DNA from: Bdellovibrionota bacterium
Lineage (GTDB): Bacteria; Bdellovibrionota; UBA2428
NCBI GenBank assembly: GCA_044347615.1
Contig: JBIKUK010000001.1
Span: 299,863-363,862, forward strand
Direction of reading: 5' to 3'
Length of the DNA stretch: 64,000 bases
Shown: positions 5,705 to 56,886 of the stretch, in pieces
How positions within the stretch are numbered: the stretch's first letter is position 1
How the letters are laid out: every line of letters starts with the position of its first letter
Notes under the pieces: generated by a model
What the model was told of the DNA's origin: nothing
The model's input: only the letters and a program-made list of their open reading frames with translations
The model's database searches: none
Made by a program: the position numbers and the translations under genes

Positions 5705-7381
<1,677 letters not shown>

Positions 7382-38711: not shown

Positions 38712-38975
38712 TCAAGGGGTGCTGGTAAAAAGTTTGCCCTCTATAAATTGTTCGATGTATTCTTCAAGAACATCTTCTCCTACAAGTTGAAGTTCATAAT
38801 CTTCAAATCCAGTGAGAGTTTTGAGTTCTAGAAGTGCATCATTGCTCAAAGGTCGTCGAGCAATAATACAGAGCTTATTTTCACGTATGGCCATGGGGAC
38901 GATTCGGTGTTTACGAAGAATGCTCATAGGGATTACGCCTTGTACGTGGTATTCGAAGTCTAGTGAACTTGCCAT
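38712..38975 (-). CDS. small protein resembling a stand-alone T2SS-E (GspE) N-terminal domain
   Basis: 87 aa; by-eye resemblance to GspE_N-type domains only. Confidence 0.35.
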   Translation of the reverse strand: MASSLDFEYHVQGVIPMSILRKHRIVPMAIRENKLCIIARRPLSNDALLELKTLTGFEDYELQLVGEDVLEEYIEQFIEGKLFTSTP

Positions 38976-43364: not shown

Positions 43365-44678
43365 TTAATTTCTTCCTACACCGTAATAAATATAGCCTGC
43401 CTTTTTAAAATCTTGAGGAGAGTAAATATTTTTTCCATCGTATATGTGCTTACCTTTGAAGTAAGTTTTCAAGCCCTCTGCTTTAATACGTTGAAATTCC
43501 TGCCATTCTGTCACAAGAATTAGTGCATCTGCGTCTTTGAGAGCGTCTTCTTTATTTGAGCAATATCGAATGTTCGCATCTTTTTTGAGGCTAGTCTTGA
43601 ACGTATCTATAGCTTTGGGGTCATAGGCGTTAAATTGATACCCATAGGCAGAAAGTTTTTCGACAATTACAAGCGCAGGACTTTCTCGAACATCGTCTGT
43701 TTCTGGTTTAAAAGCTAGTCCTAGAAGAGCAATGCGAGTATTTGAAGCTTTTGGAAAGTCTTTTAAAATTTGATTAACGAAAATAAGTTTTTGATCATCA
43801 TTGAAGGAGTCGATGGCCTCAGCAACTGAAGCATCAACGCCTTGTTTTTTACAAAGATCGATAAAATTTTTGATGTCTTTTGGAAAGCAACTCCCACCAA
43901 ATCCAAGTCCAGCATAAAGATATTTAGATCCGATTCGCGAATCACTCTGCAGAACCTTTTCTATGCTTCTTATATCAGCTCCCGTAACAGAGGAAAGGCG
44001 AGCGATTTGATTGACCACTGAAACTCTTGAAGCAAGCATTAGGTTCGCTCCTAGTTTTGCAAGTTCAGCAGAAACGGAATCAATTTTGATGAGGGGTTTT
44101 TGATTCAAAAGAAAACTTTCGTAAATAAATCCAACTTTTTCAACAGCTTCGGGAGATCCTCCAAGAACAACTCTTTCAGGCCTTAGGAAATCTGCAACAG
44201 CTGTTCCTTCTTTTAAAAACTCAGGATTGTTGAGAACTGAAATTTTTCCCGGAGCTAAGGATTCAGCTATTTTTTGAAGTTTCTGTGATGTTCCCACTGG
44301 AACAGTTGATTTAATAATAAAGTAACATTTGTTTTTTGATATAGATGCACAATCTCTTAGAGCTTCTTCAACATAACTAAGATTTGCGCTTCCATCAGGA
44401 TTTTCGGGTGTTCCAACGGCACAAAAAACAAATTGAGCATTTAGATTTTCAAGAGCGTCTTTTTGATTCGAGAAAAAGCTAAGACGTTTTGAGGCAATAC
44501 CTTCTTTAAGTAACTCGCTTAGTCCAGGCTCATAAAATGGCACTTGAGAGTCTTTTATAAGTTTTAATTTTTGCGGATTTGATTCAACCATTCCGACTTG
44601 AAAACCTGCGCTAGCAAAACATGCACCAGCAACAAGCCCTACATAACCCGCACCAATAACAATTATTCTTTCAGACAT
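43365..44678 (-). CDS. ugd: UDP-glucose 6-dehydrogenase
   Basis: 437 aa; N-terminal Rossmann IIVIGAGYVGLV and catalytic-Cys region GFGGSCFPKD typical of UDP-glucose/GDP-mannose dehydrogenases. Confidence 0.9.
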   Translation of the reverse strand: MSERIIVIGAGYVGLVAGACFASAGFQVGMVESNPQKLKLIKDSQVPFYEPGLSELLKEGIASKRLSFFSNQKDALENLNAQFVFCAVGTPENPDGSANLSYVEEALRDCASISKNKCYFIIKSTVPVGTSQKLQKIAESLAPGKISVLNNPEFLKEGTAVADFLRPERVVLGGSPEAVEKVGFIYESFLLNQKPLIKIDSVSAELAKLGANLMLASRVSVVNQIARLSSVTGADIRSIEKVLQSDSRIGSKYLYAGLGFGGSCFPKDIKNFIDLCKKQGVDASVAEAIDSFNDDQKLIFVNQILKDFPKASNTRIALLGLAFKPETDDVRESPALVIVEKLSAYGYQFNAYDPKAIDTFKTSLKKDANIRYCSNKEDALKDADALILVTEWQEFQRIKAEGLKTYFKGKHIYDGKNIYSPQDFKKAGYIYYGVGRN

Positions 44679-44798
44679 AATTTATTCATCGGAAAAAGTT
44701 TACTTAAATAAATACTGAATAAAACGAAAAATTGACGATTTTTTTTAAAATAAGGTTGAAAGTTTAATATTTCAACAGATTTGACGAATGAAGAATAA

Positions 44799-45632
44799 GT
44801 GAGTCAAAAAAAAAAGCTTAAAAAGCGTATAAATTGGAAAAGGCAGGCCTTGGCAGCAGAGCGTTTAAGGTTTGAAAGTATTAAAAGCTTTCAAACAAGA
44901 CACGATCCTATCCGAGTTGACCTCCTTGCTTTAGGAGTGTCCCATGAATTCAATAATATTTTGGGAGCTGCTCTTGGTCATGCAGAGTGGGCATTAGATA
45001 CAAAAGAACCCTCAGATATGAAAGAAGCCTTAGAAGTTATTCGAACTGCGTGCATTCGGTGCTCTAAAATTACTAAGTCTTTGCAAGGTATTGTTCAGCC
45101 TCGTGAGGAAAAAAAAACCATTTACTCGTTAAAAAAGCTTTATCAAGAACTTGAAAAACTTTGGGAGCCTAGAGCTAAAAATCAAAAAATAAAAATTGTT
45201 TTTGAAAGAGAGGATTTAAATGTTTATTTAGATCCGGGTGCTGTTATCGAAATTCTATCAAACTTAATTAAGAATGCGTTTGAAATTTTTGAATCAAATA
45301 AAACTTTAAATCCCAAGATTCACGTCATAACAAAATTACAAAAAAAGAATGTTGAAATTCTTGTGCAAGATAATGGACCGGGCGTTTCTTCAGCATATAG
45401 ACCTTTCTTGTTTCAGCCGTTTTTTTCTACAAAGGGAACAATTAACGCGGTCTTTAAAGAAGATAAGAATATTGACACTGGTTCTGAAGCGAGTCTTAAC
45501 TCAAAAAACAGTGGACTTGGCTTGTATTTAAGTAAGGCTTTAGCGCAAGAAATGGGCGGAAACCTGGAGCTAGTAGAAGGTAAAGAGAATTTGGGTGCTT
45601 GTTTTATCCTGACTCTCCCACTTGTCACTTAA
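44799..45632 (+). CDS. cytoplasmic sensor histidine kinase (HisKA + HATPase_c), no membrane or sensor domain
   Basis: 277 aa, GTG start; H-box SHEFNNILGAALGH, N/G boxes (IKNAFE, DNGPGV, GLGLYLSKALAQEMGG). Confidence 0.8.
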   Translation: MSQKKKLKKRINWKRQALAAERLRFESIKSFQTRHDPIRVDLLALGVSHEFNNILGAALGHAEWALDTKEPSDMKEALEVIRTACIRCSKITKSLQGIVQPREEKKTIYSLKKLYQELEKLWEPRAKNQKIKIVFEREDLNVYLDPGAVIEILSNLIKNAFEIFESNKTLNPKIHVITKLQKKNVEILVQDNGPGVSSAYRPFLFQPFFSTKGTINAVFKEDKNIDTGSEASLNSKNSGLGLYLSKALAQEMGGNLELVEGKENLGACFILTLPLVT

Positions 45633-45692
45633 TTGACTTTAAAAAAGAAAAAAAAATTTTGAAATTTGATAAGTTTGCCGAATACGTAATAT

Positions 45693-47252
45693 ATGAAATC
45701 TCTTTATTTCATTGGAGATGAAGAGCTTTGGAGCGATGCATGGTTTAAGGCATTGGTTGAAAGCTTAGAAGCAAAAATGAATCTAACCCTTTTGGTTTAT
45801 GATTCCGTAAAAGATCTTCAAAAGATTAAAAGCATAAGTAGTAAAATAACAGTTGCTGATAGAATTATAATAAAAAAAAATCTTTCACTTAATTTAGGCT
45901 TAGAAAAAAAGCACCAGGGCTTAGTGTTTAATCTTTCAAAAGATAAAGAAGAAATAAAAACAGATTCATTTGTAGAATGGGGTGTTTCAACCCAAGCTTT
46001 TCTAGAAAAAATTGGTATTTCTGAGGCTTCTCAAGTTATAGAAGAAGACTTTTTATCTGAAATAAATATTGCTAGCGAAGTATCAAAAATTATTGAGTCA
46101 GAAGAAAAATCAACTTTAGATAGTGATGCTTTCAGTTCGGAGCTTGAGGATTTATCAAAACTTTTAGAAGCCGACTTTTCTTCTGCTTCAAAAGAGCCTT
46201 TGTCGCAAAAATCTGAATTGCAAATAGAAGATCAGCTTGAAGTAGCTTCGTTTGAAAGTAATAACCAAGAAAACATTGTTGCTTTAGAAAAAAATGAAGA
46301 TGAGGTTGATCAGTCATTAAATGTTGAAATAAGCTTAAATGAAGAACAACCTCTTATCGAGAAAGAATCAACTGATTTAGATCCCCAAGATTTGATAGCG
46401 GCCTTAGAGAGTTCTCCTTTGGCAGATAGCAGTTCTGTAGCAGAGAGAAGTCCGCTTATTGAAGAAAAAGAAGAATTAGATGTTTTGGAATCTTTAGAAA
46501 TTCCTTCTGCAAAGATTGAAGTCGATGTAGAAACTTTTTCTGAATCTGCCAAACCAGAGGTAGAAGTTGGCAAGCTTTTGTCTTCAATGAGTGCAGAGGT
46601 TTCAGGTGAAGATTTAGGTGTCATTAAAAGATATTCTAATATAAAAGAGCGCGAATTGAGGGAGTCACAGGCTTCAGCAGAAGCTCTCAGACGTCAGATT
46701 CGCTACTTCGATGAACGACTTAAGAAAAGTGAAGAAGAGCGTAGAAAACTAATTTTGAAACTTGAAGAAGTTCAAAGTGAGCTACGAACAACAAGTGACA
46801 AAAAAGATGAGAATAGAGCAAAGCTTAAGAACATTGAAAATCATTATGAGGAAAAAATTAAGGAGCTTCAAATTCAACTTGAAAGTTCACAGTTTCAGGC
46901 TGGTAAGTTAGAAAAAAAGCTTGAAGATTTTCGTGATCGTGTACGAAATGATCTTCAAAAAATAAGATCACGAGAAAGGGAGCTTGCAAGCCGCCTCGAG
47001 ATACAAAAGCGAGATGCTGAAGCCTTATTAAGTGCTAAAGATGAGCGTCTTCTTAATCAAAAGAGAGACATAGATAGATTAGAGTTTGAAATTGACAAGT
47101 TACGCGAACGCCTTCTTGATAACGTTAACAGTAGCGAAGAGAGAAGGAAAAGGATAACAAGATCTCTCCAATCGCTAAAACTTGCTCAGAGTGTTCTTTC
47201 TGGCTTAGATGAAGAGACTTCAGAAAAGGATGAAAAAAGTAAGGTAGCCTAG
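45693..47252 (+). CDS. hypothetical acidic coiled-coil protein
   Basis: 519 aa; Glu/Ser/Leu-rich N-terminal half, long heptad-like charged C-terminal half; no nucleotide-binding motif seen. Confidence 0.5.
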   Translation: MKSLYFIGDEELWSDAWFKALVESLEAKMNLTLLVYDSVKDLQKIKSISSKITVADRIIIKKNLSLNLGLEKKHQGLVFNLSKDKEEIKTDSFVEWGVSTQAFLEKIGISEASQVIEEDFLSEINIASEVSKIIESEEKSTLDSDAFSSELEDLSKLLEADFSSASKEPLSQKSELQIEDQLEVASFESNNQENIVALEKNEDEVDQSLNVEISLNEEQPLIEKESTDLDPQDLIAALESSPLADSSSVAERSPLIEEKEELDVLESLEIPSAKIEVDVETFSESAKPEVEVGKLLSSMSAEVSGEDLGVIKRYSNIKERELRESQASAEALRRQIRYFDERLKKSEEERRKLILKLEEVQSELRTTSDKKDENRAKLKNIENHYEEKIKELQIQLESSQFQAGKLEKKLEDFRDRVRNDLQKIRSRERELASRLEIQKRDAEALLSAKDERLLNQKRDIDRLEFEIDKLRERLLDNVNSSEERRKRITRSLQSLKLAQSVLSGLDEETSEKDEKSKVA

Positions 47253-47254
47253 GA

Positions 47255-48352
47255 GTGAGCTCCATGAAAAAAATTAAAATTATTGTTTCAGACTTTCATC
47301 TTGGAAAAGGCATTTACTTGTCAGACGGTTCAGTCAATGTTCTTGAAGAATTCTTTGGGGACAGGCAATGGGAGGAGTTTCTTAACCATTTTAGCGATGG
47401 TCCTTACAAAGACATGGAAGTTGAATTGGTTTTGAACGGAGATATTTTTGATTTAATTAAAGTTGATTATAGAGGATATTATTCACCCATTTTGACTGAA
47501 GCAATCTCCGTTGAAAAGCTTCAATCTGTTCTAGACGGGCATCCTGTTTTTGTAGCAGCTCTAAAGAAATTTGGCTCTATAGCTCAACACAAAATCACCT
47601 ATGTCGTCGGCAATCATGATGTTGAAATGATTTGGCCACGATGCCAAGAGTTGTTTTCACGAAGTATAGGATGTGAGGTCCAATTTTTTAATTTTAGTTA
47701 CATAGATGAAGGTGTTCACGTTGAACATGGGCAACAGTTCGAAAATACGAATCGCGTTAATCCTAAGCAAATGTATATTACCAAAAATCTCCGTGAACCA
47801 ATTATAAATTTGCCCTGGGGAAGCCATTTTGTCATAAATTACGTTATCCCCATTAAAATGCAAAGAATTGCAGTTGATAGAGTTCGTCCTGTTAGCGCTC
47901 TTATAAGATGGAGTTTGTGGCACGACACCACATGGTGCTTAAAAAACATATTTCGAGTTCTATTATATTTTTTTGGAACAAGATTTTCTAAATCAATTTA
48001 TAGAACGACAAATCTAATGACGACTTTAAAAATTTTTAAGGAGCTATTTCGTGCTCCTCAGTTACTTGATGCTGCTAAGGATATTTTTCAGAGAAACAAT
48101 GATGTTAAAACAGTTGTCATGGGGCACACGCATGTTTTCGATACCCGCCAATTTCATGAAGGAAAGCAGTATTTAAATACAGGGACATGGACTGAGGTCA
48201 CAAGCTTAGATCTCAATAGCTTTGGTCGATACACAAAGTTTCACTATGCTTTAATTGAACTAGAAAAAGACTCAGAAGGATTAAAAGTTAATGCAAATTT
48301 GCGTGAATGGAGAGGCAAGTGGCATGAAGATGTTTCGCATCAAATGGGCTAA
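47255..48352 (+). CDS. calcineurin-like metallophosphoesterase
   Basis: 365 aa; motifs DFHLG, GDIFD, GNHD, GHTH in the canonical order of the metallophosphoesterase fold; starts 2 nt after the coiled-coil gene. Confidence 0.8.
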   Translation: MSSMKKIKIIVSDFHLGKGIYLSDGSVNVLEEFFGDRQWEEFLNHFSDGPYKDMEVELVLNGDIFDLIKVDYRGYYSPILTEAISVEKLQSVLDGHPVFVAALKKFGSIAQHKITYVVGNHDVEMIWPRCQELFSRSIGCEVQFFNFSYIDEGVHVEHGQQFENTNRVNPKQMYITKNLREPIINLPWGSHFVINYVIPIKMQRIAVDRVRPVSALIRWSLWHDTTWCLKNIFRVLLYFFGTRFSKSIYRTTNLMTTLKIFKELFRAPQLLDAAKDIFQRNNDVKTVVMGHTHVFDTRQFHEGKQYLNTGTWTEVTSLDLNSFGRYTKFHYALIELEKDSEGLKVNANLREWRGKWHEDVSHQMG

Positions 48353-49130
48353 CCTTTTTTTATTTTTTATATGTTTTAATCTTTTTGGAAATCAAAAAAA
48401 CACTTCAGCCTATATTCTAGAAGTTAAAAAAGCTTCAAAGCTTTATGATGTCCCCTCAGCAAAAGGAATTGTTGTTGGAGAGGCGGATGTGGGTACTTTT
48501 TTAATTTTTTTAGAAGAATCCAAAAAAGGACTTTGGATTAAAGTTCAGGATTCAGATGGCTTAAGCGGATGGCTTCCTAAAGATAGAACGGATTATGAAG
48601 ATATAGAAAGGTCTGTCCTTGATTCACAAAACTCAGAGTCTGTTAAAGGAAATTCTAGGGAAAGTTTGAAACAAAATTCAAATGATCGTGAAAAAACGTA
48701 TTTTGAGTCTCCCTCAAATTATAGGATTTCACCTTTTTTTAGGATTTACTCTAAGGCGATAATGGGTAGATATGAAGCAGGTATTCGTTTTGATCTAAAA
48801 ATGCCATCAGCTGATTTATCTACTAAATCTTCGAAGGTTAATTTACTTTCTTTTGATGCAGGAATTCCCTTTAATTCTAAAGAATCCTCTTATGGGTATT
48901 CAGGAGCAATACGTTTTGGGATGAAAAAATTTTTTTTACAGAACTTTTTTTATCTTTTCGATTATGGCTATTCTGTATTAAGTAGCAATTCACAGCTTCA
49001 TCATCATTTGTCTTTAGGTTTAAGTACAGGAGTTGATGTTTATCCTTTTGATATAAAAACTCGTCTTGGATTTAATATATTTTCAGGATCTAATGCTACT
49101 TTAGAGGTACAAATAGGATGCCGTTTTTAA
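48324..49130 (+). CDS. secreted protein with SH3b-like N-terminal region and beta-barrel-like C-terminus ending in Phe
   Basis: Internal ATG at 48324 gives MKMFRIKWANLFLFFICFNLFG signal peptide (track start 48291); alternating-hydrophobic C-terminal strands and a terminal aromatic residue. Confidence 0.45.
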   Translation: MKMFRIKWANLFLFFICFNLFGNQKNTSAYILEVKKASKLYDVPSAKGIVVGEADVGTFLIFLEESKKGLWIKVQDSDGLSGWLPKDRTDYEDIERSVLDSQNSESVKGNSRESLKQNSNDREKTYFESPSNYRISPFFRIYSKAIMGRYEAGIRFDLKMPSADLSTKSSKVNLLSFDAGIPFNSKESSYGYSGAIRFGMKKFFLQNFFYLFDYGYSVLSSNSQLHHHLSLGLSTGVDVYPFDIKTRLGFNIFSGSNATLEVQIGCRF

Positions 49131-49567
49131 TTGTTCTTTTATCTTTTTTTAGTTTTTTTTCATACTCTTCACAGCCAGAGGGGCTTGTTTTGAAGCCTCC
49201 AGCAGATCCTGTGCCAAGAAGAATATTAAGAAATAAGAATATTACATTTGTCGATGAAGAGAATTTAAATAAAAAAGTTAAAGTGCAAACCAATGATAAA
49301 GTTCTCTTGCACGAAACAAAGTATAGGGTAAAGGGTAGGAGTCGACCAAGCCGAACTGGGAGTGTGGTTGCAGTTATAGATAGTGGAGAAATTGTTGAGG
49401 CGATAAAAGATTCAGAAGATGGAAGGTGGAAAGCTGTTTATTTCAAAAAAAATGACATAAAAGTTTGGGTTCCAATATCAGCTCTTTCCAAAAAAAAATC
49501 GATCAATTCAAATCAATCTTCGTCTGATTTGGATGAATTGGCTGAAGAGGAAAGCCCAGATGATTGA
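49118..49567 (+). CDS. hypothetical secreted protein with SH3b-like segment
   Basis: 149 aa; signal peptide; GSVVAVIDSGEIVEAIKDSEDGRWKAVYF resembles a bacterial SH3 core; acidic C-terminus. Confidence 0.4.
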   Translation: MPFLIVLLSFFSFFSYSSQPEGLVLKPPADPVPRRILRNKNITFVDEENLNKKVKVQTNDKVLLHETKYRVKGRSRPSRTGSVVAVIDSGEIVEAIKDSEDGRWKAVYFKKNDIKVWVPISALSKKKSINSNQSSSDLDELAEEESPDD

Positions 49568-51408
49568 ATTATCTCCTCCGATAATTTCTTAATTTCGTGA
49601 AAAGAAATATTTGAGTCTAGGGAGTTTTTTTGGAATCCAAATCGCTTCTCCTCCAATTTCTTAAAGAGTTCCCGAAGTTTGTTTATTTTTGGATGAGTGG
49701 AGACGTGACAAACATTCAAAAGCATAGTCATTAACTCATCAAAAGAGGCTTCATTTTTTGAAAGTTTTGCAAATCTTAATATTATCCACTCCTCTATGTA
49801 TCCTAGTAATTGTACCAAATTCAAGTCTGGTTGCTTGTTGATTTTCTTTTCAATAAATATCCAAGGATAATTCTGTAAAAGTCGATCTTCTTCCTCTCTT
49901 TTTCTTCTTTGAATAAAAAATAGTGAGGCTAGAGCATAAAGAAAGGCGGGTATTGTCCATACGAAGATTGAAATAGATGTTTTATCTAAGTTTACAAATT
50001 CTTGAGTTCCAGCAAAAATAATACTTTTTCCTTTCTTTTCTTCTGTAAATGGTTTGTTTGAAGGTTCAATGTTTAGTTCAATCGGAGGAATCGGAATTGT
50101 TTCGTATGATTTCTTATCGGGGTCAAAGTAAGACCAAGAGTTAGCTGCTATTTTATAGTCACCTGAATTTTGAGGAACTATTAATACTTCAAAATCCTTA
50201 TAGCCTTCTGATCTATCATTTGTTTCGTAGTTTGTAGCGGTTCTGCTTTTTTGAAGAGAGGAGGGAAGATTTAGTTCGGGTTCTTGAAGTCCTTTTATGT
50301 TTCCTTTGCCCTCAATCCTCAATTTTAAGTTGAAAGCTTCATTTTGAACAAGTTTTTGATTTGGTTGTTCGAGTGATATTTTATAGGTTCCAACTGGTAT
50401 ATTATTTTGACTAATGGAAGCTGGTCTGGGTGGTAAAGGTATAACCGTTACAGGAATGGAACCAGATGTTTTGTTGAATAGTTGATTCTGGCCTAGCGTT
50501 AGTTGTGGGTTTTGCATTTGTTCTAGCATCTGAAATATATCAGTATCCACTTCGAACCTCATTTTAAGTGGATCTATAAGAAGTTCACCGCTTTTTATAG
50601 GAAATAGTGCAAATCTAATAATCTCTGCTTTAAAGTAATTGTTGTTCCTATATTCAGTTCTTTCAGGACGCCAGTTTTTAGGAATAAAGAGTTGTTCTTT
50701 TAAGAAATCTTTAAATGTTGGAAAAGAACCAAATTCTAAGTTTCTAAATATATTTTCATTTGTATAAATATAAAACGGAAGCGTAATTAGCTCGCCCACA
50801 AAGACCTGTGTCTTAGAGGGTTCTGCTACAACAAAAACATCAAGCTGTTTATTTTTATTTTCTGGCTCAATTCTGTTGAGAGGTTTTTCTTCATCAAGTT
50901 CAAAAAGATTAAAAAATGGAAGTCTTGTGTTGGGTTGAACCTGCGGTAATTGCTGTTTCGGTCTTAGACTTTTTACGATTATAGATGCTTCATCAATATT
51001 AAAAGTTTTGTTAGGTGCTGAAATTATAATTTTAGGTGTTTTGATTTCCCCTATCTTTAGGGGTACAAGGGTTAACTTTAATAATGAACTAGATTTACGA
51101 GAAGATTTTCCATTAACAAAAAATGTCTGAGTTTTTTTTAAAATCTGTGGTGCAGAGATTTCCCAGCTTTGACTTTTGTCTTCAATTGATTTCAACGAAA
51201 GATCTAACGGAGTCGATTCTTTGCTATCAATTTGAAAGCTAACTGTTATGGTTTGTCCTGAGCTTTCCCTAGGTTCAATTTTAATTTGAACATTGTTGGA
51301 TGGATCTTCTTTTGATGAAACAAGATCAGAGAAATTTATAAGAGTAAAAAAAATGATAAGTTTAATTTTTTTCATATTACTTCGATTACCATGGCTTAGA
51401 AGAGCCAT
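49513..51408 (-). CDS. BatD-like protein (signal peptide, large extracytoplasmic domain, C-terminal TM)
   Basis: 631 aa; position as last gene of the MoxR/BatA/BatB operon; single TM near the C-terminus (FVWTIPAFLYALASLFFI). Confidence 0.55.
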   Translation of the reverse strand: MALLSHGNRSNMKKIKLIIFFTLINFSDLVSSKEDPSNNVQIKIEPRESSGQTITVSFQIDSKESTPLDLSLKSIEDKSQSWEISAPQILKKTQTFFVNGKSSRKSSSLLKLTLVPLKIGEIKTPKIIISAPNKTFNIDEASIIVKSLRPKQQLPQVQPNTRLPFFNLFELDEEKPLNRIEPENKNKQLDVFVVAEPSKTQVFVGELITLPFYIYTNENIFRNLEFGSFPTFKDFLKEQLFIPKNWRPERTEYRNNNYFKAEIIRFALFPIKSGELLIDPLKMRFEVDTDIFQMLEQMQNPQLTLGQNQLFNKTSGSIPVTVIPLPPRPASISQNNIPVGTYKISLEQPNQKLVQNEAFNLKLRIEGKGNIKGLQEPELNLPSSLQKSRTATNYETNDRSEGYKDFEVLIVPQNSGDYKIAANSWSYFDPDKKSYETIPIPPIELNIEPSNKPFTEEKKGKSIIFAGTQEFVNLDKTSISIFVWTIPAFLYALASLFFIQRRKREEEDRLLQNYPWIFIEKKINKQPDLNLVQLLGYIEEWIILRFAKLSKNEASFDELMTMLLNVCHVSTHPKINKLRELFKKLEEKRFGFQKNSLDSNISFHEIKKLSEEIIQSSGLSSSANSSKSDED

Positions 51409-53218
51409 TTTGCTTACCTAGCTCATTACCTTTTTTCTGAGATTCACTTTTTAATTTCTTTTTAATAACTTTTCGCTCTTCACTGCTGATGCTTTGCATG
51501 ATTTGTTTTACTTCATCAGGCGTATAGTTCTTACCTCTGTAGTCTTGAGGCTTTTTATCTTCATCGTTTGGATCTTGGCTTTTATTGGATTTTCCTTGGT
51601 TATTAGATTTTCCTTGACCTTGATTTCCGCCACCGCTTCCTTGCTTTTGAGAGTTTTGTTTTAATAAACGCGCAAGATTGTGTCGGATTATGGGATCTAG
51701 CGTTTTTGAGGGAGGGTCGTTAAGTGCATTATAGTAGCTTTCAATTGCTGCCTGAGTTTTTTTACCCAGTTCGTAGGCTTGAGCAAGTTGGTAAAACCAT
51801 TTTTTTTTATCCAAAGGATCGGGATCTTTTTTGGCCAAAGGCTCTAAGATCTTTGAAATCTCTAGAGCTTCCTCTTCTACAGGGCTTAGGTCTAATCCTT
51901 CTTTTGTCTGCAGATATAATTGTTTATTTTCTATCTGTTTCAGTCGAGATGTTATCCAGTTAAAGATATATTTTTTTTCATTTGATTCACGGTTAAGAGC
52001 TTTTTCAAAAAGCTCTTGTGCGTAATCGAATTTCTTTAGATTGAAAAAGAAGACTCCAATATTATTTTGTAAGCTATCCAAAGTAGTGGAAGCTTGTAAT
52101 GTTTTTTGTGAAAAAAGGGCAATAGCAAAGACAACCTTGGACGAGATTTTTAGAAATTTGTTTCTGTAGTATAAAAAAACTCCCCCCGTCTCAGTTGTTA
52201 TCCACTCTAAAAGTAAAAGAATAATTCCAATAAGAAGAGGAATTTGAAATTTTTCTTCTTTTTCAACTTGGACGCCTTCCTCTTTAAGTTTAAACTCTAA
52301 TTTTTTTAAGTTTTCAGCAAAACTTACTTTAAAGTTTGAAGACTCATCCGCTATGTAAACTTGACCATTAGTTTTCTCTGCTAGTTTTGTTACAAAACTT
52401 TTTTCAGCTTTAGTTTTTGCATCTAAACCCGTTTCTGGGTCTTTTACAAATCCCAAACCGTGACCGTCTTTATCTTTTTGAGGAATAGGGGTGCCTTGTT
52501 TTTTGCCAATTAAAAAAGTTGAGATGGGAATTTTATTCCTGATGAGGCCTTTTATAATGCTTGATTCAATTTGGTTACTGTCATCACCATCGGTGACAAG
52601 GAGTATTGACCCCGCAGTATTTTCTTTTTCGTCATCGTTTTTGGTATCAGTAATATCCTTATACCCTAGGGCCTCCGCGCAAGTTATTACTGCGCCTTGG
52701 ATAAAAGTTGAGGGAAGGCTTACAAAGCTGGGGTTTAGGGGGTTTAGGTAGTCTGCAATAGCATCTAAATCTGAAGTAAGAGGTGCTGCGATAAAAGCAC
52801 CTCCTGCAAATCCGACAAGAGTAACTTTTGTTTTATTTAGATTTTCAAGAAGAAGTATGAGCTCTCTTTTTGCGTATTCCAAACGATTGGGATTCATATC
52901 TTCTGCATGCATACTTTGAGAAAGATCAAGCGCTATGCATAGGTCTGAACCCACGACTTTTTTTATGCTGTGTTTGGCTCCCCACTTAGGTCGCATAAGA
53001 CTAAAAGCAATCAAAGTAATTCCTAAAATAAAAAGAAATTCTTTGAAAACTCTATTTTTGGGTAATTTTTGAGTTTGAGAAACTTCAAGTGTTTTGGAGG
53101 CCTGTATGATTTGCGAGTATTTTTTTCTCAAAAAATGAGTTTTGAAAATTAAATATATTAAACATCCGACTATCAAAAATAAAAAGCTAAATTCTGGTCT
53201 ATGAAATTCAATATTCAT
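51386..53218 (-). CDS. BatB-like protein: 2 TM + vWA domain + TPR-like region + Lys/Gly-rich tail
   Basis: 610 aa; vWA MIDAS context (ALDLSQSMHAED...LLVTDGDDSN); TPR-like helices; low-complexity basic C-terminus. Confidence 0.7.
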   Translation of the reverse strand: MNIEFHRPEFSFLFLIVGCLIYLIFKTHFLRKKYSQIIQASKTLEVSQTQKLPKNRVFKEFLFILGITLIAFSLMRPKWGAKHSIKKVVGSDLCIALDLSQSMHAEDMNPNRLEYAKRELILLLENLNKTKVTLVGFAGGAFIAAPLTSDLDAIADYLNPLNPSFVSLPSTFIQGAVITCAEALGYKDITDTKNDDEKENTAGSILLVTDGDDSNQIESSIIKGLIRNKIPISTFLIGKKQGTPIPQKDKDGHGLGFVKDPETGLDAKTKAEKSFVTKLAEKTNGQVYIADESSNFKVSFAENLKKLEFKLKEEGVQVEKEEKFQIPLLIGIILLLLEWITTETGGVFLYYRNKFLKISSKVVFAIALFSQKTLQASTTLDSLQNNIGVFFFNLKKFDYAQELFEKALNRESNEKKYIFNWITSRLKQIENKQLYLQTKEGLDLSPVEEEALEISKILEPLAKKDPDPLDKKKWFYQLAQAYELGKKTQAAIESYYNALNDPPSKTLDPIIRHNLARLLKQNSQKQGSGGGNQGQGKSNNQGKSNKSQDPNDEDKKPQDYRGKNYTPDEVKQIMQSISSEERKVIKKKLKSESQKKGNELGKQNGSSKPW

Positions 53219-54240
53219 GGATACTTCCTCCAGATACTTTGAAGAGCGAGGCCCTCAGCTATCAGGAAAAGCATCCCAACCCAAAGAAAAAAATCAGCTC
53301 CCTCGCTAGTTTTAGTCTGATTTGAAATTTCGATTTTACTTTTTTCAAGTTGGTCAATCTCGCTGAGTATTTTACCCATTAAACTTTGGTCAACAGCCGA
53401 GTATGCTTTGCCTCCCGTAAAGTTTGAGATTTTTTCGAGAAGCTCATCGTTAGCGGCATCTGTTAAATATTGTAGGACTTGTTTTTTATTACCAAATCCA
53501 TCCTCGACTGTTACAGGAAAGGGAACTCTACCTTTTTTTCCGATTCCTATAGAATAAATTTTAATTCCAAAACCAGCAGCAATTTGTGAGGCTGATATTG
53601 GATCGATTGAGCCCATGTTATTGTCTCCATCTGTAACAAGGAGAATTGTTTTAGATTTAGCCGTTGATCCTTTAAGGTGGTTAACGGCAACAGCTAGCGC
53701 TTGTCCGATAGCTGTTCCATCTTCAAGGCCTGAATTTGAACTTGATTTTAAGTTAGCTAGAAGGAGTTTGTGATCAAGAGTTAGGGGCGCGCTTAAGTAA
53801 GCTTCCCCGCTAAATAATACTAATCCCAATCGATCATCTTGCCGTAAGTTGATGAATTCTACCAATCGATCAATTGCCACGGTTCTTCTGTTAGGTGAAA
53901 AGTCTAAAGCATCCATAGACTTTGAAAGGTCAAAGGCAACGATCATATCTATTGATTCAACAATCCTTTTTTCTTTACCAAATTTTTTCTGAGGTCTTGC
54001 AAGAGCTAATATCAAAAAAGTAAGGGCAGTGAATCTCAGCGCTGCTTGAAGTTTAAATGGAGTAATCTGTTTCTGATTTTCGGTACGAGTTGACCAGTCA
54101 AAGGGGAATATGAGACGACTTCTAAAGCGGACAGAAATTTTTATGAAAAATATAAAACATAGTAAAAGGGGAATTAAGAGCAAGAATGCTTCGGGGCTAA
54201 ACCATGCGAAATTACTTAAGCTTTGACTTGAGTAGCTCAT
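53215..54240 (-). CDS. BatA-like protein: 2 TM + vWA domain
   Basis: 341 aa; vWA motifs (IVAFDLSKSMDA...LLVTDGDNN) after two N-terminal TM helices. Confidence 0.75.
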   Translation of the reverse strand: MSYSSQSLSNFAWFSPEAFLLLIPLLLCFIFFIKISVRFRSRLIFPFDWSTRTENQKQITPFKLQAALRFTALTFLILALARPQKKFGKEKRIVESIDMIVAFDLSKSMDALDFSPNRRTVAIDRLVEFINLRQDDRLGLVLFSGEAYLSAPLTLDHKLLLANLKSSSNSGLEDGTAIGQALAVAVNHLKGSTAKSKTILLVTDGDNNMGSIDPISASQIAAGFGIKIYSIGIGKKGRVPFPVTVEDGFGNKKQVLQYLTDAANDELLEKISNFTGGKAYSAVDQSLMGKILSEIDQLEKSKIEISNQTKTSEGADFFLWVGMLFLIAEGLALQSIWRKYP

Positions 54241-55022
54241 CTGGAATTCTCTTTTTTATCTGAGGACTTAGGGATATCTTTCTTTGGAAAAGCCAGGAAA
54301 ATTGTTTTTATTTTTATAAGATAATCTTGCCAAAGTTTTGAGTTAATTGTTTTTTTGGCAAACCTCACATCGTCCGCTGTTTTTAAGACGTACTCTAACT
54401 GAGATGTTAAATTCTGGTTTTTGCTTTGGGTAAGTCCCATGGCCCTAAATGTTCCTATGAATTCCCCAGTCGTAAGAGAGTTGGTGTTTAAATTCAGCTC
54501 GTTTTCTAGGAAGTGTCTTAGATATTTATATATTTCATGTAAATGGGCACTTTCTGGATTTTGAACATTGATTTCGCAATGGAGAATATATTTTTCCAAC
54601 TCCACTCTAGGGTCAAATTTATTTTTTTTCTTTTCTTGAAAAGTAACTTTGTTTTTTCTTTTATTTATATAATAAAAGAACCCCCCAAAGACGGAAAAAA
54701 TAATTAAGAAACAAGCTATATAAAAACCTAGAGGGTAATCAATCTTTTCTGCGTTAAGAGGCGCAAATCTTTGATTAGCAACTTTTGGATCAAGTTCTTT
54801 GATGTTGGCTTGTACGGCCACATTGGAAGAACTACACGGCAATGAAAAGGAAATGGTTCCTGTTTTAAAGGGACCCAGGGTTACGACTTCTTTTTTAATT
54901 TTTAGCACCTTTGCAAGGATTTCTTTTTCATCTGGAAGAGTGTCGCCGGTACTCAATATTGGGTTCTCGCCAATAGGACAGCTTACATTAAATGTATCTC
55001 CCGCGTTTATTTCAATTGCCAT
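54237..55022 (-). CDS. hypothetical single-pass membrane protein within the MoxR/Bat operon
   Basis: 261 aa; one central TM (FYIACFLIIFSVFGGFFYYI); overlaps neighbouring genes by 4 nt at the BatA start, consistent with an operon. Confidence 0.5.
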   Translation of the reverse strand: MAIEINAGDTFNVSCPIGENPILSTGDTLPDEKEILAKVLKIKKEVVTLGPFKTGTISFSLPCSSSNVAVQANIKELDPKVANQRFAPLNAEKIDYPLGFYIACFLIIFSVFGGFFYYINKRKNKVTFQEKKKNKFDPRVELEKYILHCEINVQNPESAHLHEIYKYLRHFLENELNLNTNSLTTGEFIGTFRAMGLTQSKNQNLTSQLEYVLKTADDVRFAKKTINSKLWQDYLIKIKTIFLAFPKKDIPKSSDKKENSR

Positions 55023-55023
55023 A

Positions 55024-55884
55024 TCACGATCCTTTTATGAAGGCCTCAAGAGGTCTTAGAAATTCTTGGTTTTCATTTAATTTTAAAAAGGGAATACGGG
55101 CCATTTCAAAAAATGTTTGAACTTTGTCTATTTTTTTTCCTTCTTTTTGAACGTTTTCTTGAAAATTTTGTGACTCTGTTGCAATTGTAAAGGCTTTTGC
55201 ATTTTCAGCAGCTTCCATTTCTATAAAGGGAAAGGGGGGAAACATTTGAAGACGAGAGTGAAAAACTCCAATTGCTAAAAATTCGTGTTTAAGTGAATAT
55301 TCCTTCAGAATCCTTTGTTCGGGGAGTTTTTCAAAGTCTGAGATAAAGAATATAACGCTTTGTTTTTTTAAATAACCTCTCAGTTGTTTAAGGGCATGGT
55401 TTGGGTCAGTCCCACGAGTTTTATGGCCTGTTTTAAGTATTTCGCGAACGAGTCTAAGGACGTGGTTTCTTCCCTTTTCGGGAGGTAGACATTTTTCGAC
55501 AGTTTGAGAAAATGTAAGAAGTCCAACTTTTTCTCCTATATCCTCAGCAGAGAGGGCGAGAGTTGCAGCTATTTCAGCAATTCGATAGGCGACGCTTCCT
55601 CCTATCGGTCCTCTTCTTGCAGAAGCGCTTACGTCTACAACAAGAAAATAGTTTTTATCACGTTCTTCTTCAAAAGTTTTTAAAACTGTCTCGTTGGCTT
55701 TTGCACTTGTTGTCCAGGATATATGTCTAATGTCATCTCCGTAAACATAAGGCCGAAACTCTCTAAACTGTAATCCAGAACCCTTGAACCGTGACTGAAA
55801 TCCTCCAACAAGTCCTTTTTTTATGAGATGGTGATTTCGTATTTCAAGCTTTCGGATCTCTTTAAGAAATTCCTCAAAGGTCAT
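55024..55884 (-). CDS. DUF58-family protein (MoxR-associated)
   Basis: 286 aa; signature GSGLQFREFRPYVYGDDIRHISW. Confidence 0.8.
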   Translation of the reverse strand: MTFEEFLKEIRKLEIRNHHLIKKGLVGGFQSRFKGSGLQFREFRPYVYGDDIRHISWTTSAKANETVLKTFEEERDKNYFLVVDVSASARRGPIGGSVAYRIAEIAATLALSAEDIGEKVGLLTFSQTVEKCLPPEKGRNHVLRLVREILKTGHKTRGTDPNHALKQLRGYLKKQSVIFFISDFEKLPEQRILKEYSLKHEFLAIGVFHSRLQMFPPFPFIEMEAAENAKAFTIATESQNFQENVQKEGKKIDKVQTFFEMARIPFLKLNENQEFLRPLEAFIKGS

Positions 55885-55896
55885 GTGTTTAACTCC

Positions 55897-56886
55897 TTAA
55901 GGAGTTGGGAGCGCAGATAGAATTTTTGTAATGATTTGTTGAGCGGTAACTTCTTGAGCCTCTGCTTCAAAAGAGAGAAGAATCCTATGTCTTAGGACAT
56001 CTGGCGCAACTGCCTTGATGTCGTCTGGAGTTACAAAAGCTCTTCCCTCCATAAAAGCTTTGGCCCTTGAAGCTCTTGCCAGAGAAAGAGTTGCTCTTGG
56101 AGAGGCTCCAAATTGAATATATCTTTCTATTTCGCTCAGTTTTTTATTCGCTTTTGGTTCGCGAGAAGCAAAAACAATTTCTATGATGTAGTCTTTGACT
56201 TTTGAATCAAGATAGATTTCGTTGCAGAGACTTCGCGCCTTAAGAATTTGGCTGGCGCCAGCTATAGGACGAAGCGTGCCTTCTTTAGAGGAAGCTTGAG
56301 TTTCAAGAATTTTTAATTCCTCTGCTTTATTTGGGTAGGGGATGAGAACTTTAAACATAAAGCGGTCCATTTGAGCTTCAGGAAGTCGATAGGTTCCTTC
56401 TTGTTCAATAGGGTTTTGAGTTGCTAAAACAATAAAGGGCTCTTCGAGTTTGTAGGTTTCATCGCCAATGGTGACTTGCTTTTCAGCCATACACTCTAAG
56501 AGAGCTGATTGAACTTTTGCGGGTGCGCGATTGATTTCGTCAGCGAGAACGATGTTTGCAAATATGGGACCTTTTTTAGGGAAAAATTCTCCGCTTTTAG
56601 GATTGAAAACCATTGTTCCTGTTAGGTCGCTAGGTAAAAGATCAGGAGTAAATTGTAAGCGTTTAAAGTTAAGGTCAATTAAATCAGCAAGAGTTTTGAC
56701 AGCAAGGGTTTTAGCAAGTCCAGGTAGTCCTTCGAGAAGAACATGACCCCCTGTCAAAAGTCCCATGAGGATTCTTTCGATCATTTTTTTTTGCCCAACA
56801 ATTATTTTAGAAATATCTGTTTCAAGTTGATTTATGAAAGCACTTTCCTGTTTAATCAGTTCACCTAATTGATTTAAATCAGCCAT
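55897..56886 (-). CDS. MoxR-family AAA+ ATPase
   Basis: 329 aa; Walker A (GLPGLAKT) and overall MoxR-like sequence. Confidence 0.9.
   Translation of the reverse strand: MADLNQLGELIKQESAFINQLETDISKIIVGQKKMIERILMGLLTGGHVLLEGLPGLAKTLAVKTLADLIDLNFKRLQFTPDLLPSDLTGTMVFNPKSGEFFPKKGPIFANIVLADEINRAPAKVQSALLECMAEKQVTIGDETYKLEEPFIVLATQNPIEQEGTYRLPEAQMDRFMFKVLIPYPNKAEELKILETQASSKEGTLRPIAGASQILKARSLCNEIYLDSKVKDYIIEIVFASREPKANKKLSEIERYIQFGASPRATLSLARASRAKAFMEGRAFVTPDDIKAVAPDVLRHRILLSFEAEAQEVTAQQIITKILSALPTP

What the first reader, a model, noticed from the sequence alone, without database searches (positions are those of the whole stretch)
44799..48352. Operon of a sensor-less histidine kinase, an acidic coiled-coil protein and a metallophosphoesterase
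Three co-oriented genes with 60-nt and 2-nt gaps. The coiled-coil plus phosphoesterase pairing superficially recalls SbcC/SbcD-like modules, but the coiled-coil protein has no Walker A/B motifs and the kinase has no obvious cognate response regulator nearby. I cannot assign this combination to a described system.
Basis: partly seen in the sequence, partly recalled or inferred. Interest (0 to 1): 0.45.

Follow-up and report, generated by a model that had tools for sequence, protein, structure and literature searches.

The report
Polar scaffold, kinase and phosphoesterase operon
This three-gene operon from a predatory bacterium (Bacteriovoracaceae) appears to be a variant of the Bd0739-Bd0740 gene pair of Bdellovibrio, whose coiled-coil protein marks the prey-invading cell pole; here that protein carries a degenerate receiver domain and is paired with a sensor-less histidine kinase.

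Summary
Three co-oriented genes encode a 277-aa soluble HisKA/HATPase_c kinase, a 519-aa acidic coiled-coil protein and a 362-365-aa metallophosphoesterase.

The interpretation needs revising in two ways.

- **The coiled-coil and phosphoesterase genes are adjacent across Bdellovibrionota.** In a cultured Bdellovibrio genome the order is coiled-coil, phosphoesterase, PGI, FHA-GGDEF. This matches the published Bd0739-Bd0740-Bd0741-Bd0742 (dgcB) order. Bd0739 is a published RomR partner at the invasive pole and is needed for prey attachment.

The kinase gene occurs only next to family members that carry the pseudo-receiver.

The phosphoesterase has intact catalytic motifs, and its best fold match is LpxH, not SbcD/Mre11.

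Best reading: a polar scaffold that docks a sensor-less kinase, translationally coupled to an LpxH-fold hydrolase. The homologies are well supported. The mechanism is inferred.

The parts
44799..45632 (+). Soluble, sensor-less histidine kinase (277 aa). HisKA spans aa 46-95, with the H-box 'SHEFNNILG' and phospho-His H49 (nt 44943-44945). HATPase_c spans aa 145-275.
   Evidence: Pfam and NCBIfam hits. H49, the N-box (N155), G1 (D191, G193, G195), the F-box and G2 (G239, G241) are invariant among orthologues down to 39% identity. No transmembrane segment. It is the only kinase-like ORF in the window.
45693..46022 (+). N-terminal pseudo-receiver domain of the scaffold protein (aa 1-110), a (beta-alpha)5 CheY-like fold.
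46023..46574 (+). Acidic, poorly conserved linker, predicted disordered (about aa 111-294).
   Evidence: pI 4.05 and net charge -35 for aa 130-305. Length and sequence vary among homologues. AF2 pLDDT is below 50 from aa 112.
46575..47252 (+). Family-defining C-terminal coiled-coil domain (aa 295-519), with the motif 'KIRSRERELASRLEIQKRDAEALLSAKDERLLNQKRDIDRLEFEI'.
   Evidence: 43 invariant columns among 11 sequences. A profile finds 979 cluster representatives at E<=1e-10, with the match at or near the C-terminus (within about 30 residues) in every one of the 150 listed. BLASTP to the Bdellovibrio sp. BCCA homologue gives 36% identity over 107 aa, E 3e-15.
47251..47255 (+). AGGAG Shine-Dalgarno overlapping the TAG stop of the scaffold gene, 8 nt before ATG 47264.
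   Evidence: Read directly from the sequence.
47255..48352 (+). LpxH-fold metallophosphoesterase of the Bd0740 type. The probable true start is ATG 47264. The helical cap insertion covers aa 188-280 (nt 47816-48094).
48324..49567 (+). Two SH3_3-domain proteins carrying apparent signal peptides. The first overlaps the end of the phosphoesterase gene by about 29 nt. They are a clade-specific downstream extension of the transcription unit, not part of the conserved core.
   Evidence: SH3_3 hits. Overlap read from the sequence. Conserved downstream only in the close relatives L001, L002 and L004.

Best explanation
The locus is the Bacteriovoracaceae version of a cell-pole module specific to Bdellovibrionota.

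**Scaffold.** The middle gene encodes a long-form member of the Bd0739 family. Its conserved C-terminal coiled coil is the family's common element. By analogy with Bd0739 it would mediate oligomerisation and binding to the polar hub protein RomR (inferred). An acidic disordered linker joins it to an N-terminal pseudo-receiver.

**Kinase.** The pseudo-receiver cannot be phosphorylated in the usual way: Lys replaces the acceptor Asp, and the Mg-binding acid pair is lost in relatives. It keeps the receiver fold, so it most likely serves as a docking and regulatory surface for the DHp domain of the soluble kinase encoded 60 nt upstream. The scaffold would thus supply the localisation and input that the kinase lacks (inferred from co-occurrence). 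The kinase keeps every catalytic motif and presumably phosphorylates a response regulator encoded elsewhere.

**Phosphoesterase.** The third gene is translationally coupled to the scaffold gene. It encodes a catalytically intact LpxH-fold binuclear metallophosphoesterase with a large, hydrophobic helical cap. It most likely hydrolyses a small phosphodiester or pyrophosphate substrate (nucleotide- or lipid-linked) near the membrane, rather than DNA (inferred).

**Link to c-di-GMP.** In sister lineages diguanylate-cyclase genes sit inside or beside the same operon, which ties the module to c-di-GMP signalling at the pole.
For: **Scaffold family**
- The profile of the C-terminal domain retrieves a large family with the domain always C-terminal.
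- Homologues in the fetched loci score E 1e-29 to 1e-97, and no unrelated ORF in those loci scores.

**Scaffold and phosphoesterase adjacency survives changes of flank**
- Between a SerA (2-hydroxyacid dehydrogenase) gene and SH3 genes in L004; the trio itself also in L001-L003.
- After a SerA (2-hydroxyacid dehydrogenase) gene, with a GGDEF gene inserted; the same scaffold-GGDEF-phosphoesterase order on contigs whose upstream end is cut.
- After RlmN-PfkB and before PGI and FHA-GGDEF; in Bdellovibrio sp. BCCA three other genes lie between PfkB and the scaffold gene.
- After a divergently transcribed radical-SAM gene and before an acyltransferase gene and SecA.

**Link to Bd0739-Bd0740**
- In Bdellovibrio sp. 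BCCA (a 3.8-Mb contig) the order is scaffold(449 aa)-phosphoesterase(379)-PGI-FHA/GGDEF at about 0.71 Mb.
- This equals the published order: Bd0739 near dgcB, bd0740 calcineurin-like in the dgcB operon, Bd0741 PGI, Bd0742 DgcB.
- Bd0739 is the top RomR proximity hit, a direct RomR partner in the POLAR assay, and forms invasive-pole foci. Its transposon mutant fails in prey attachment.

**Pseudo-receiver**
- Alignment with CheY shows the acid pair replaced by Gly-x in all 25 long forms, and the Asp57 position not conserved.

**Kinase tracks the pseudo-receiver**
- Both are present in the window, L001-L005, L014 and the P0022 and P0025 contigs.
- Both are absent in L007/L008, whose protein has a truncated N-terminus.
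- Both are absent in all short-form loci: L009-L013 and L095.

**Kinase competence:** the catalytic motifs are invariant.

**Phosphoesterase:**
Against: - No experiment exists for any long-form member, the kinase or the phosphoesterase.
- The Bd0739 identification rests on homology plus gene order in a congeneric genome. The HD100 sequence itself was not obtained.
- The kinase/pseudo-receiver correlation rests on about ten contexts from perhaps four or five independent lineages. The upstream flank (an aminotransferase gene and a SerA gene, preceded by UvrB where the contig reaches that far) is also conserved in every kinase-containing locus whose upstream region is on the contig, so shared ancestry could explain part of it.
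- In one MAG (L004) the kinase is frameshifted.
- No GGDEF gene lies in this 64-kb window, so the c-di-GMP link is by analogy only.
- The substrate of the phosphoesterase is unknown. The LpxH-like fold is also compatible with a purely envelope-biosynthetic role.
- In B. bacteriovorus, RomR phosphorylation appears to have been lost (PMC6428892). A kinase acting on the RomR hub therefore has no precedent.
Confidence: 0.6

Rival explanations
1. A conventional two-component pair. The kinase phosphorylates the N-terminal receiver domain of the coiled-coil protein, which then changes its oligomeric state or partners.
For: The receiver fold is encoded 60 nt downstream of the kinase. Acidic residues D9, E10 and E11 follow beta1, and Ser82 follows beta4 in the window protein. 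Some distant long forms keep an Asp at the acceptor position within a 'D-x-S-M-P-P-M' context.
Against: The window clade has a conserved Lys at the acceptor position and lacks the beta5 Lys. The acceptor position is Asp in only about 8 of 25 long forms, and the Mg-binding acid pair is replaced by Gly-x in all 25. No Pfam Response_reg hit approaches the cut-off.
Confidence: 0.1
2. The phosphoesterase is a lipid A pathway enzyme, an LpxH-type UDP-2,3-diacylglucosamine hydrolase or a close functional analogue. Its linkage to the coiled-coil protein would then reflect envelope biogenesis rather than signalling.
Against: Sequence identity to LpxH is only about 15%. Motif III is GNHD, not the LpxH-specific GNRD. 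No LpxH NCBIfam model is hit at E<=0.1. B. bacteriovorus already has an annotated lpxH in the ftsA-ftsZ operon (PMC12448681). No lpx genes are adjacent in any locus examined.
Confidence: 0.15
3. The phosphoesterase is a phosphoprotein phosphatase that resets the phospho-Thr switch of the FHA-domain diguanylate cyclase DgcB. This is the suggestion made for bd0740 by Meek et al. 2019.
For: The authors proposed bd0740 as a putative phosphatase in the dgcB operon (PMC6733907). FHA-GGDEF genes lie 0-2 genes downstream in Bdellovibrio, Pseudobdellovibrionaceae and Oligoflexia loci.
Confidence: 0.12
4. An SbcCD/Mre11-Rad50-like DNA-end processing or anti-phage module.
Against: The coiled-coil protein has no Walker A and no Cys or zinc hook. 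There are no PADLOC hits. LpxH outranks the nucleases. The homologue Bd0739 is a polar RomR partner.
Confidence: 0.02
5. The three genes are neighbours by descent only and have no functional coupling.
For: The upstream block of an aminotransferase gene and a SerA gene, with UvrB before them where the contig extends that far, is also syntenic in L004, L005, L014 and the P0022 contig.
Against: The scaffold and phosphoesterase stay adjacent, with 2-30 nt gaps or with only a GGDEF gene or two small genes between them, in at least four different flanking contexts. The one exception is L005, where the phosphoesterase lies 5 kb away. The Shine-Dalgarno overlaps the upstream stop codon. The kinase tracks the pseudo-receiver.
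Confidence: 0.05

Closest known systems
Bd0739-Bd0740 of the Bdellovibrio bacteriovorus dgcB (Bd0742) locus
   Same: The C-terminal coiled-coil domain is homologous: profile E 1e-61 to the Bdellovibrio sp. BCCA protein, and BLASTP 36% over 107 aa. The phosphoesterase is homologous at 42% identity over its full length. The gene order is the same, with the scaffold immediately upstream of the phosphoesterase.
   Different: The Bdellovibrio proteins are short forms. They have a basic N-terminal peptide of the type 'KKKK..A.DLIDSLLDD' and no receiver-fold domain. They have no adjacent kinase. PGI and FHA-GGDEF (DgcB) follow downstream, and these are absent from this window.
FrzS of Myxococcus xanthus (pseudo-receiver plus long coiled coil; polar type IV pilus motility regulator)
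   Different: There is no detectable sequence homology. Pfam Response_reg is not hit, and PDB sequence searches find no FrzS. The coiled-coil domain belongs to a distinct family. FrzS is not known to pair with a kinase or a phosphoesterase gene (own knowledge).
LpxH (UDP-2,3-diacylglucosamine pyrophosphohydrolase)
   Same: It is the best structural match, and both have a binuclear metallophosphoesterase core with a helical cap inserted between motifs IV and V.
   Different: Identity is about 15%. The motif is GNHD rather than GNRD. The protein is about 120 residues longer, with a cap of about 95 residues. LpxH family models are not hit.
Polar scaffold and histidine-kinase pairs of Caulobacter (PodJ-PleC, SpmX-DivJ, DivL-CckA/DivK)
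   Same: The concept is shared: a coiled-coil or pseudo-signalling scaffold at a pole recruits or controls a kinase. In DivL a receiver-type interaction is used without phosphotransfer (own knowledge).
   Different: There is no homology. Those kinases carry their own sensor or membrane domains. This comparison is an analogy only and was not tested here.
SbcCD / Mre11-Rad50
   Same: A coiled-coil protein is encoded next to a calcineurin-like phosphoesterase.
   Different: There is no ABC ATPase head and no zinc hook. The gene order is reversed relative to sbcDC, in which the phosphoesterase gene comes first (own knowledge). The phosphoesterase resembles LpxH more than the nucleases.

Membership tests
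Bd0739-type polar scaffold family (no Pfam model) | Conserved C-terminal coiled-coil domain of about 190-220 aa, with the core motif IR.RERE(L)..(R/K)LE..K...A.L...KD...L..KR | tested here: met
   Profile hits at E 1e-29 to 1e-97 in all related loci. BLASTP E 3e-15 to the Bdellovibrio sp. BCCA protein. 16 invariant columns across long and short forms.
Bd0739-type polar scaffold family (no Pfam model) | Gene lies immediately upstream of a Bd0740-type metallophosphoesterase | tested here: met
   The window gap is 2-11 nt. The same adjacency is seen in L001-L004, L009-L011, L013 and L095. A GGDEF gene lies between the two in L006, L007, L012 and L014.
Bd0739-type polar scaffold family (no Pfam model) | Linkage to dgcB (FHA-GGDEF) and pgi | tested here: not met
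   There is no GGDEF-like ORF anywhere in the 64-kb window.
Bd0739-type polar scaffold family (no Pfam model) | Direct RomR binding, and foci at the invasive pole in attack phase | not testable with these tools
   Shown only for B. bacteriovorus Bd0739 (PMC11025332).
Response regulator (phosphorylatable receiver) | CheY-like (beta-alpha)5 fold | tested here: met
Response regulator (phosphorylatable receiver) | Phospho-acceptor Asp at the end of beta3, an acidic pair after beta1, and a Lys after beta5 | tested here: not met
   Lys62 is at the acceptor site and there is no Lys after beta5. In 25 long forms the acid pair is replaced by Gly-x, and the acceptor is Asp in only about 8.
FrzS family | Pseudo-receiver followed by a long coiled coil | tested here: met
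   This is a resemblance in architecture only.
FrzS family | Sequence homology to FrzS | tested here: not met
   No PDB sequence hit to 2gkg at E<=10. No Response_reg Pfam hit for the window protein.
Histidine kinase (HisKA class) | H-box His in a DHp domain, plus the N, G1, F and G2 boxes of the catalytic domain | tested here: met
   Pfam. H49, N155, D191/G193/G195, F205-F209 and G239/G241 are invariant in orthologues.
Histidine kinase (HisKA class) | Own sensory input domain (transmembrane, PAS, GAF and so on) | tested here: not met
   Only 45 residues precede HisKA, and no other domain or transmembrane segment is present.
LpxH | Metallophosphoesterase core with a helical cap between motifs IV and V | tested here: met
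LpxH | GNRD third motif, and a match to curated LpxH models | tested here: not met
   GNHD is invariant. Opiyo et al. state that Arg is LpxH-specific. No LpxH NCBIfam hit.
LpxH | UDP-2,3-diacylglucosamine hydrolase activity | not testable with these tools
   This needs an enzyme assay or a complementation test.
SbcCD / Mre11-Rad50 | ABC ATPase head (Walker A/B) and a CxxC zinc hook in the coiled-coil protein | tested here: not met
   No Walker A and no Cys in the protein.
PPP-type Ser/Thr protein phosphatase | GDxHG, GDxVDRG and GNHE motifs | tested here: not met
Known anti-phage defence systems (PADLOC) | Match to any PADLOC model | tested here: not met
   No hits at E<=0.01 for any of the three proteins.

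The most novel reading that the evidence does not exclude
The long-form scaffold and its kinase could form a previously unrecognised polar signalling hub in predatory Bdellovibrionota. In this reading a pseudo-receiver fused to the RomR-binding coiled coil acts as the 'sensor' of a soluble histidine kinase, so pole identity is turned into phosphorylation of an unlinked regulator. Candidates are RomR's own receiver in lineages that keep it intact, or a REC-GGDEF cyclase. The co-translated LpxH-fold enzyme would be a new class of hydrolase for a nucleotide second messenger or a nucleotide-lipid at the invasion pole.
Probability: 0.2. Interest if true: 0.75.

Novelty: new variant of a known kind. 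Interest (0 to 1): 0.5.

Why it matters
Bd0739 is so far an orphan "hypothetical" protein: the top RomR partner at the prey-invading pole of Bdellovibrio, and required for prey attachment. The authors described it as present in only a few species. This locus changes that picture in four ways.

- Bd0739 belongs to a large family defined by a C-terminal coiled-coil domain.
- The family is almost always encoded next to a catalytically intact LpxH-fold phosphoesterase.
- Diguanylate-cyclase genes are often encoded with the pair.
- In some lineages, including this one, the scaffold carries a pseudo-receiver and is paired with a dedicated sensor-less kinase.

This gives experimentalists concrete, testable partners for the polar hub that controls prey invasion: a kinase, a phosphoesterase and a docking domain. 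It also offers a new example of a pseudo-receiver used as a scaffold module.

Tried and rejected
**Searches that led nowhere**
- Sequence searches of the scaffold and the phosphoesterase against the PDB gave only coiled-coil noise and weak Vps29 hits. They were uninformative, so fold searches were needed.
- Pfam, NCBIfam and PADLOC found no family for the scaffold and no defence system.
- Rfam found no RNA family on 44000-50000.
- The promoter and terminator scan found no more sites than shuffled sequence gives, so it says nothing about transcript boundaries.
- The metagenome scan with the kinase alignment was driven by generic H-box patterns. It returned 79 unrelated kinases (24-33% identity) and one 1.1-kb orthologue. 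None lies next to a scaffold, phosphoesterase or pseudo-receiver, so it is not informative about orthologue linkage.
- The first k-mer-based homologue search suggested a tiny family of 28 proteins. Exhaustive HMMER showed this to be a sensitivity artefact.
- The afdb50 fold library was unavailable.
- I could not obtain the HD100 Bd0739 sequence itself. The link rests on a congeneric cultured genome plus published locus descriptions.

**Interpretations rejected**
- SbcCD-like module.
- Defence system.
- PPP-type phosphatase.
- Bona fide response regulator.

The reasons are in the membership table.


Full report
**1. Observation**

The window carries three co-oriented + strand ORFs: 44799-45632 (277 aa), 45693-47252 (519 aa) and 47255-48352 (365 aa). 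The gaps are 60 nt and 2 nt.

- **Kinase.** The first ORF has HisKA (aa 46-95) and HATPase_c (aa 145-275) and nothing else. It has no hydrophobic segment and only a basic 45-residue N-terminus.
- **Coiled-coil protein.** The second ORF is acidic overall: pI 4.7, net charge -37. It has no Walker A motif, no cysteine and no curated family.
- **Phosphoesterase.** The third ORF is a calcineurin-like phosphoesterase (PF00149).
- **Response regulator.** A CheY/Spo0F phmmer scan of all window ORFs of at least 80 aa found no receiver domain. The CheY query worked on a spiked Spo0F control.
- **Start codon.** The phosphoesterase probably starts at ATG 47264. An AGGAG at 47251-47255 overlaps the TAG stop of the preceding gene, and the closest homologues are 360-362 aa. 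This points to translational coupling.
- **Downstream.** The next ORF, an SH3-domain protein with a signal-peptide-like start, overlaps the phosphoesterase 3' end.
- **Organism.** Base composition (about 34-41% GC) and the nearest relatives (Bacteriovoracaceae MAGs with 85-87% identical phosphoesterase) place the window in the Bacteriovoracaceae (Bdellovibrionota).

**2. The coiled-coil protein has three parts**

Alignment of homologues shows three regions:
- a moderately conserved N-terminal region of about 110-130 aa;
- a hypervariable acidic linker;
- a very strongly conserved C-terminal region of about 220 aa, with 43 invariant columns among 11 sequences spanning 45-90% identity.

Mapped onto the model, the residue after beta3 is Lys62, conserved as Lys in the window's clade, not Asp. 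No Lys follows beta5. In a MAFFT alignment of 25 long-form relatives with CheY, the Asp12/Asp13 pair is replaced by Gly-x in every sequence. The Asp57 position is Asp in only about 8 of them. The domain is therefore a pseudo-receiver. One distant member still gives a sub-threshold Response_reg hit (E 0.01), which fits descent from a true receiver.

**3. Family size**

The word-indexed search found only 28 relatives. A profile of the C-terminal domain reached shorter proteins in Pseudobdellovibrionaceae. An exhaustive HMMER search of 1.84 billion cluster representatives, using a profile that included those shorter proteins, found 1279 hits at E<=1e-3, 979 at E<=1e-10 and 405 at E<=1e-30. In all 150 listed hits the match lies at or near the C-terminus, within about 30 residues of it.

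- **Long forms** (about 460-710 aa) begin with the receiver-like 'hhhhG' strand.
- **Short forms** (about 220-460 aa) begin with a conserved basic/amphipathic peptide, 'M.KKKK..A.DLIDSLLDD'.
- No Pfam model covers the domain.

**4. Gene neighbourhood**

The phosphoesterase family is larger still in the word-indexed search: 607 proteins at E<=1e-10. It is highly conserved, with 40-42% identity across the phylum. The scaffold gene sits directly upstream of it in every lineage examined but one, even though the flanks differ.

| Locus or clade | Gene order |
|---|---|
| Window clade (L004; kinase-scaffold-phosphoesterase also in L001-L003) | UvrB - aminotransferase - SerA - (UDP-glucose dehydrogenase) - kinase - scaffold - phosphoesterase - SH3 - SH3 |
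| Intermediate clade (L014; also the P0022 and P0025 contigs, L006, L007) | [aminotransferase - SerA] - kinase - scaffold - GGDEF - phosphoesterase (the upstream part is on the contig only in L014 and P0022, where a 169-aa ORF also precedes the phosphoesterase) |
| L005 | kinase - scaffold, with the phosphoesterase 5 kb downstream |
| Pseudobdellovibrionaceae (L009-L011) | RlmN - PfkB - scaffold - phosphoesterase - [PGI] - FHA/GGDEF - ECF sigma |
| Oligoflexia MAG (L012) | RlmN - PfkB - scaffold - GGDEF (468 aa) - phosphoesterase - ACAD - PGI - FHA/GGDEF |
| L013 | radical SAM (opposite strand) - scaffold - phosphoesterase - acyltransferase - SecA |
| Bdellovibrio sp. BCCA (L095; 3.8-Mb contig, about 0.71 Mb) | scaffold (449 aa) - phosphoesterase (379) - PGI - FHA/GGDEF |

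**5. Link to published work**

The literature gives the following for B. bacteriovorus HD100:
- Bd0742 is DgcB, an FHA-GGDEF cyclase needed for prey invasion.
- Bd0741 is PGI.
- Bd0739, 'located near dgcB', is the top hit of RomR proximity labelling and a direct RomR partner in a heterologous POLAR assay. It forms RomR-colocalised foci at the invasive pole of attack-phase cells (PMC11025332).

The gene order in the cultured Bdellovibrio genome matches Bd0739 to Bd0742 one for one. I therefore identify the window's scaffold and phosphoesterase as divergent homologues of Bd0739 and Bd0740. This rests on homology plus synteny. The HD100 sequences themselves were not retrievable.

**6. The kinase**

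Its orthologues (39-77% identity) keep every catalytic motif.

- **Present.** The kinase occurs immediately upstream of the scaffold in all loci whose scaffold has the pseudo-receiver and whose upstream region is on the contig: the window, L001-L005, L014, and the P0022 and P0025 contigs.
- **Absent.** It is missing where the scaffold N-terminus is truncated (L007/L008) and from all short-form loci (L009-L013, L095).

I take this co-occurrence, together with the receiver fold, to mean that the pseudo-receiver is the kinase's docking or regulatory partner. This is an inference.

Three caveats apply. The number of independent lineages is small. The upstream aminotransferase-SerA block (with UvrB where the contig reaches it) is co-inherited in every kinase-bearing locus whose upstream region is on the contig. 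In L004 the kinase is frameshifted.

**7. The phosphoesterase**

- Residues G62, D63, G119-N120-H121-D122, H158, G290, H291 and H293 are invariant, and D13 and H15 are present in at least 90%, across 53 homologues. The enzyme should therefore be active.
- The AF2 model is confident: pLDDT 90.3, pTM 0.91. It has a five-helix, aromatic-rich insertion (aa 188-280) between motifs IV and V.
- It is not a member of the LpxH family proper. The motif is GNHD rather than GNRD, no LpxH model is hit, and Bdellovibrio has a separate annotated lpxH.

I infer a small-molecule phosphodiester or pyrophosphate substrate bound under a hydrophobic cap. I cannot choose between lipid-linked and nucleotide substrates. 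The recurrent diguanylate-cyclase neighbours make a nucleotide messenger an attractive possibility, but it is untested.

**8. Mechanism proposed and rivals**

*Shown*
- The homologies.
- The receiver fold without acceptor chemistry.
- Intact kinase and phosphoesterase motifs.
- Conserved adjacency and a coupling signal.
- The published polar/RomR role of the Bdellovibrio homologue.

*Inferred*
- The window's scaffold is polar and RomR-associated.
- The kinase docks on the pseudo-receiver.
- The kinase signals to an unlinked regulator.
- The phosphoesterase acts on a small molecule at the pole.

*Rivals* (details in the structured fields)
- True two-component pair (0.10).
- Lipid A enzyme (0.15).
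- Phospho-Thr phosphatase for DgcB (0.12).
- SbcCD-like or defence module (0.02; no PADLOC hits).
- Mere synteny (0.05).

A RomR kinase is a tempting idea, but published work argues that RomR phosphorylation has been lost in B. bacteriovorus and may not occur in M. xanthus (PMC6428892).

**9. Verdict**

The feature is real and conserved. It is not an SbcCD-like system. It is a new architectural variant of a recently recognised but essentially uncharacterised polar module of predatory bacteria: a pseudo-receiver fusion plus a dedicated sensor-less kinase. Interest is moderate (0.5). A specialist in Bdellovibrio and Myxococcus polarity would find the family definition, the scaffold and phosphoesterase coupling and the kinase/pseudo-receiver pairing useful and testable. 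The mechanism, however, remains inferential.

Noticed in passing
window 38712-38975 (- strand): An 87-aa stand-alone MshEN domain protein (PF05157, E 5e-9, above cut-off) lies just upstream of uvrB. MshEN domains in other proteins bind c-di-GMP (own knowledge). An ORF of the same size with a weak MshEN hit lies near uvrB in L004 and in the P0022 contig.
   Followed up: partly
L004 7094-7917: The kinase orthologue in this Bdellovibrionota MAG is split by a frameshift near 7375 into a HisKA ORF and a HATPase_c ORF. This is either a pseudogene or an assembly error.
   Followed up: partly
window 47255-47266: The longest-ORF start of the phosphoesterase (GTG 47255) is probably wrong. ATG 47264 has a well-spaced AGGAG that overlaps the upstream stop codon, and homologues are 360-362 aa.
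   Followed up: yes
window 48291-49567 (+): Two SH3_3-domain proteins with signal-peptide-like N-termini follow the phosphoesterase. The first ends in '...GCRF', as outer-membrane beta-barrel proteins often end in an aromatic residue (own knowledge), and it overlaps the phosphoesterase gene. They are conserved only in the window's own clade.
   Followed up: partly
window 49513-56886 (- strand): A BatD, VWA/TPR and VWA gene series on the opposite strand. In L004 the equivalent series also includes a DUF58 gene. This is a Bat-like operon, syntenic with L004.
   Followed up: no
L006 2015-2572; L007 9740-10321; L014 6584-7165: Stand-alone GGDEF proteins of 185-193 aa are encoded between the scaffold and phosphoesterase genes in the intermediate clade. 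In the two whose sequences were read (L006, L007) the GGDEF motif is intact and there is an RxxD I-site ('RSDD....RYGGDEF' in L006; 'RNKD' in L007). All three overlap the scaffold gene's end by 4 nt.
   Followed up: partly
L012 5592-6998: In the Oligoflexia locus the GGDEF protein between the scaffold and the phosphoesterase is 468 aa. It starts 'RILFFDDEP', like a receiver beta1 strand with its acid pair. Pfam reports only the GGDEF domain.
   Followed up: no
short-form family members (P0039-P0043, P0190-P0299; L095 7001-8350): Short-form scaffolds share a conserved N-terminal peptide, 'M.KKKK..(A/P).(D/E)DLIDSLLDD(L/V)', which may be a short interaction or membrane-binding helix. Long forms instead end in a conserved '..(D/E)(E/D)AA' or 'K.AA' C-terminus.
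   Followed up: no
window 45633-45692: The 60-nt kinase-scaffold spacer is very A/T-rich. It has no recognisable Shine-Dalgarno before ATG 45693. A TTGATA-15 nt-TAATAT promoter-like pair ends right at the start codon. The scaffold gene might have its own, possibly leaderless, transcript.
   Followed up: no
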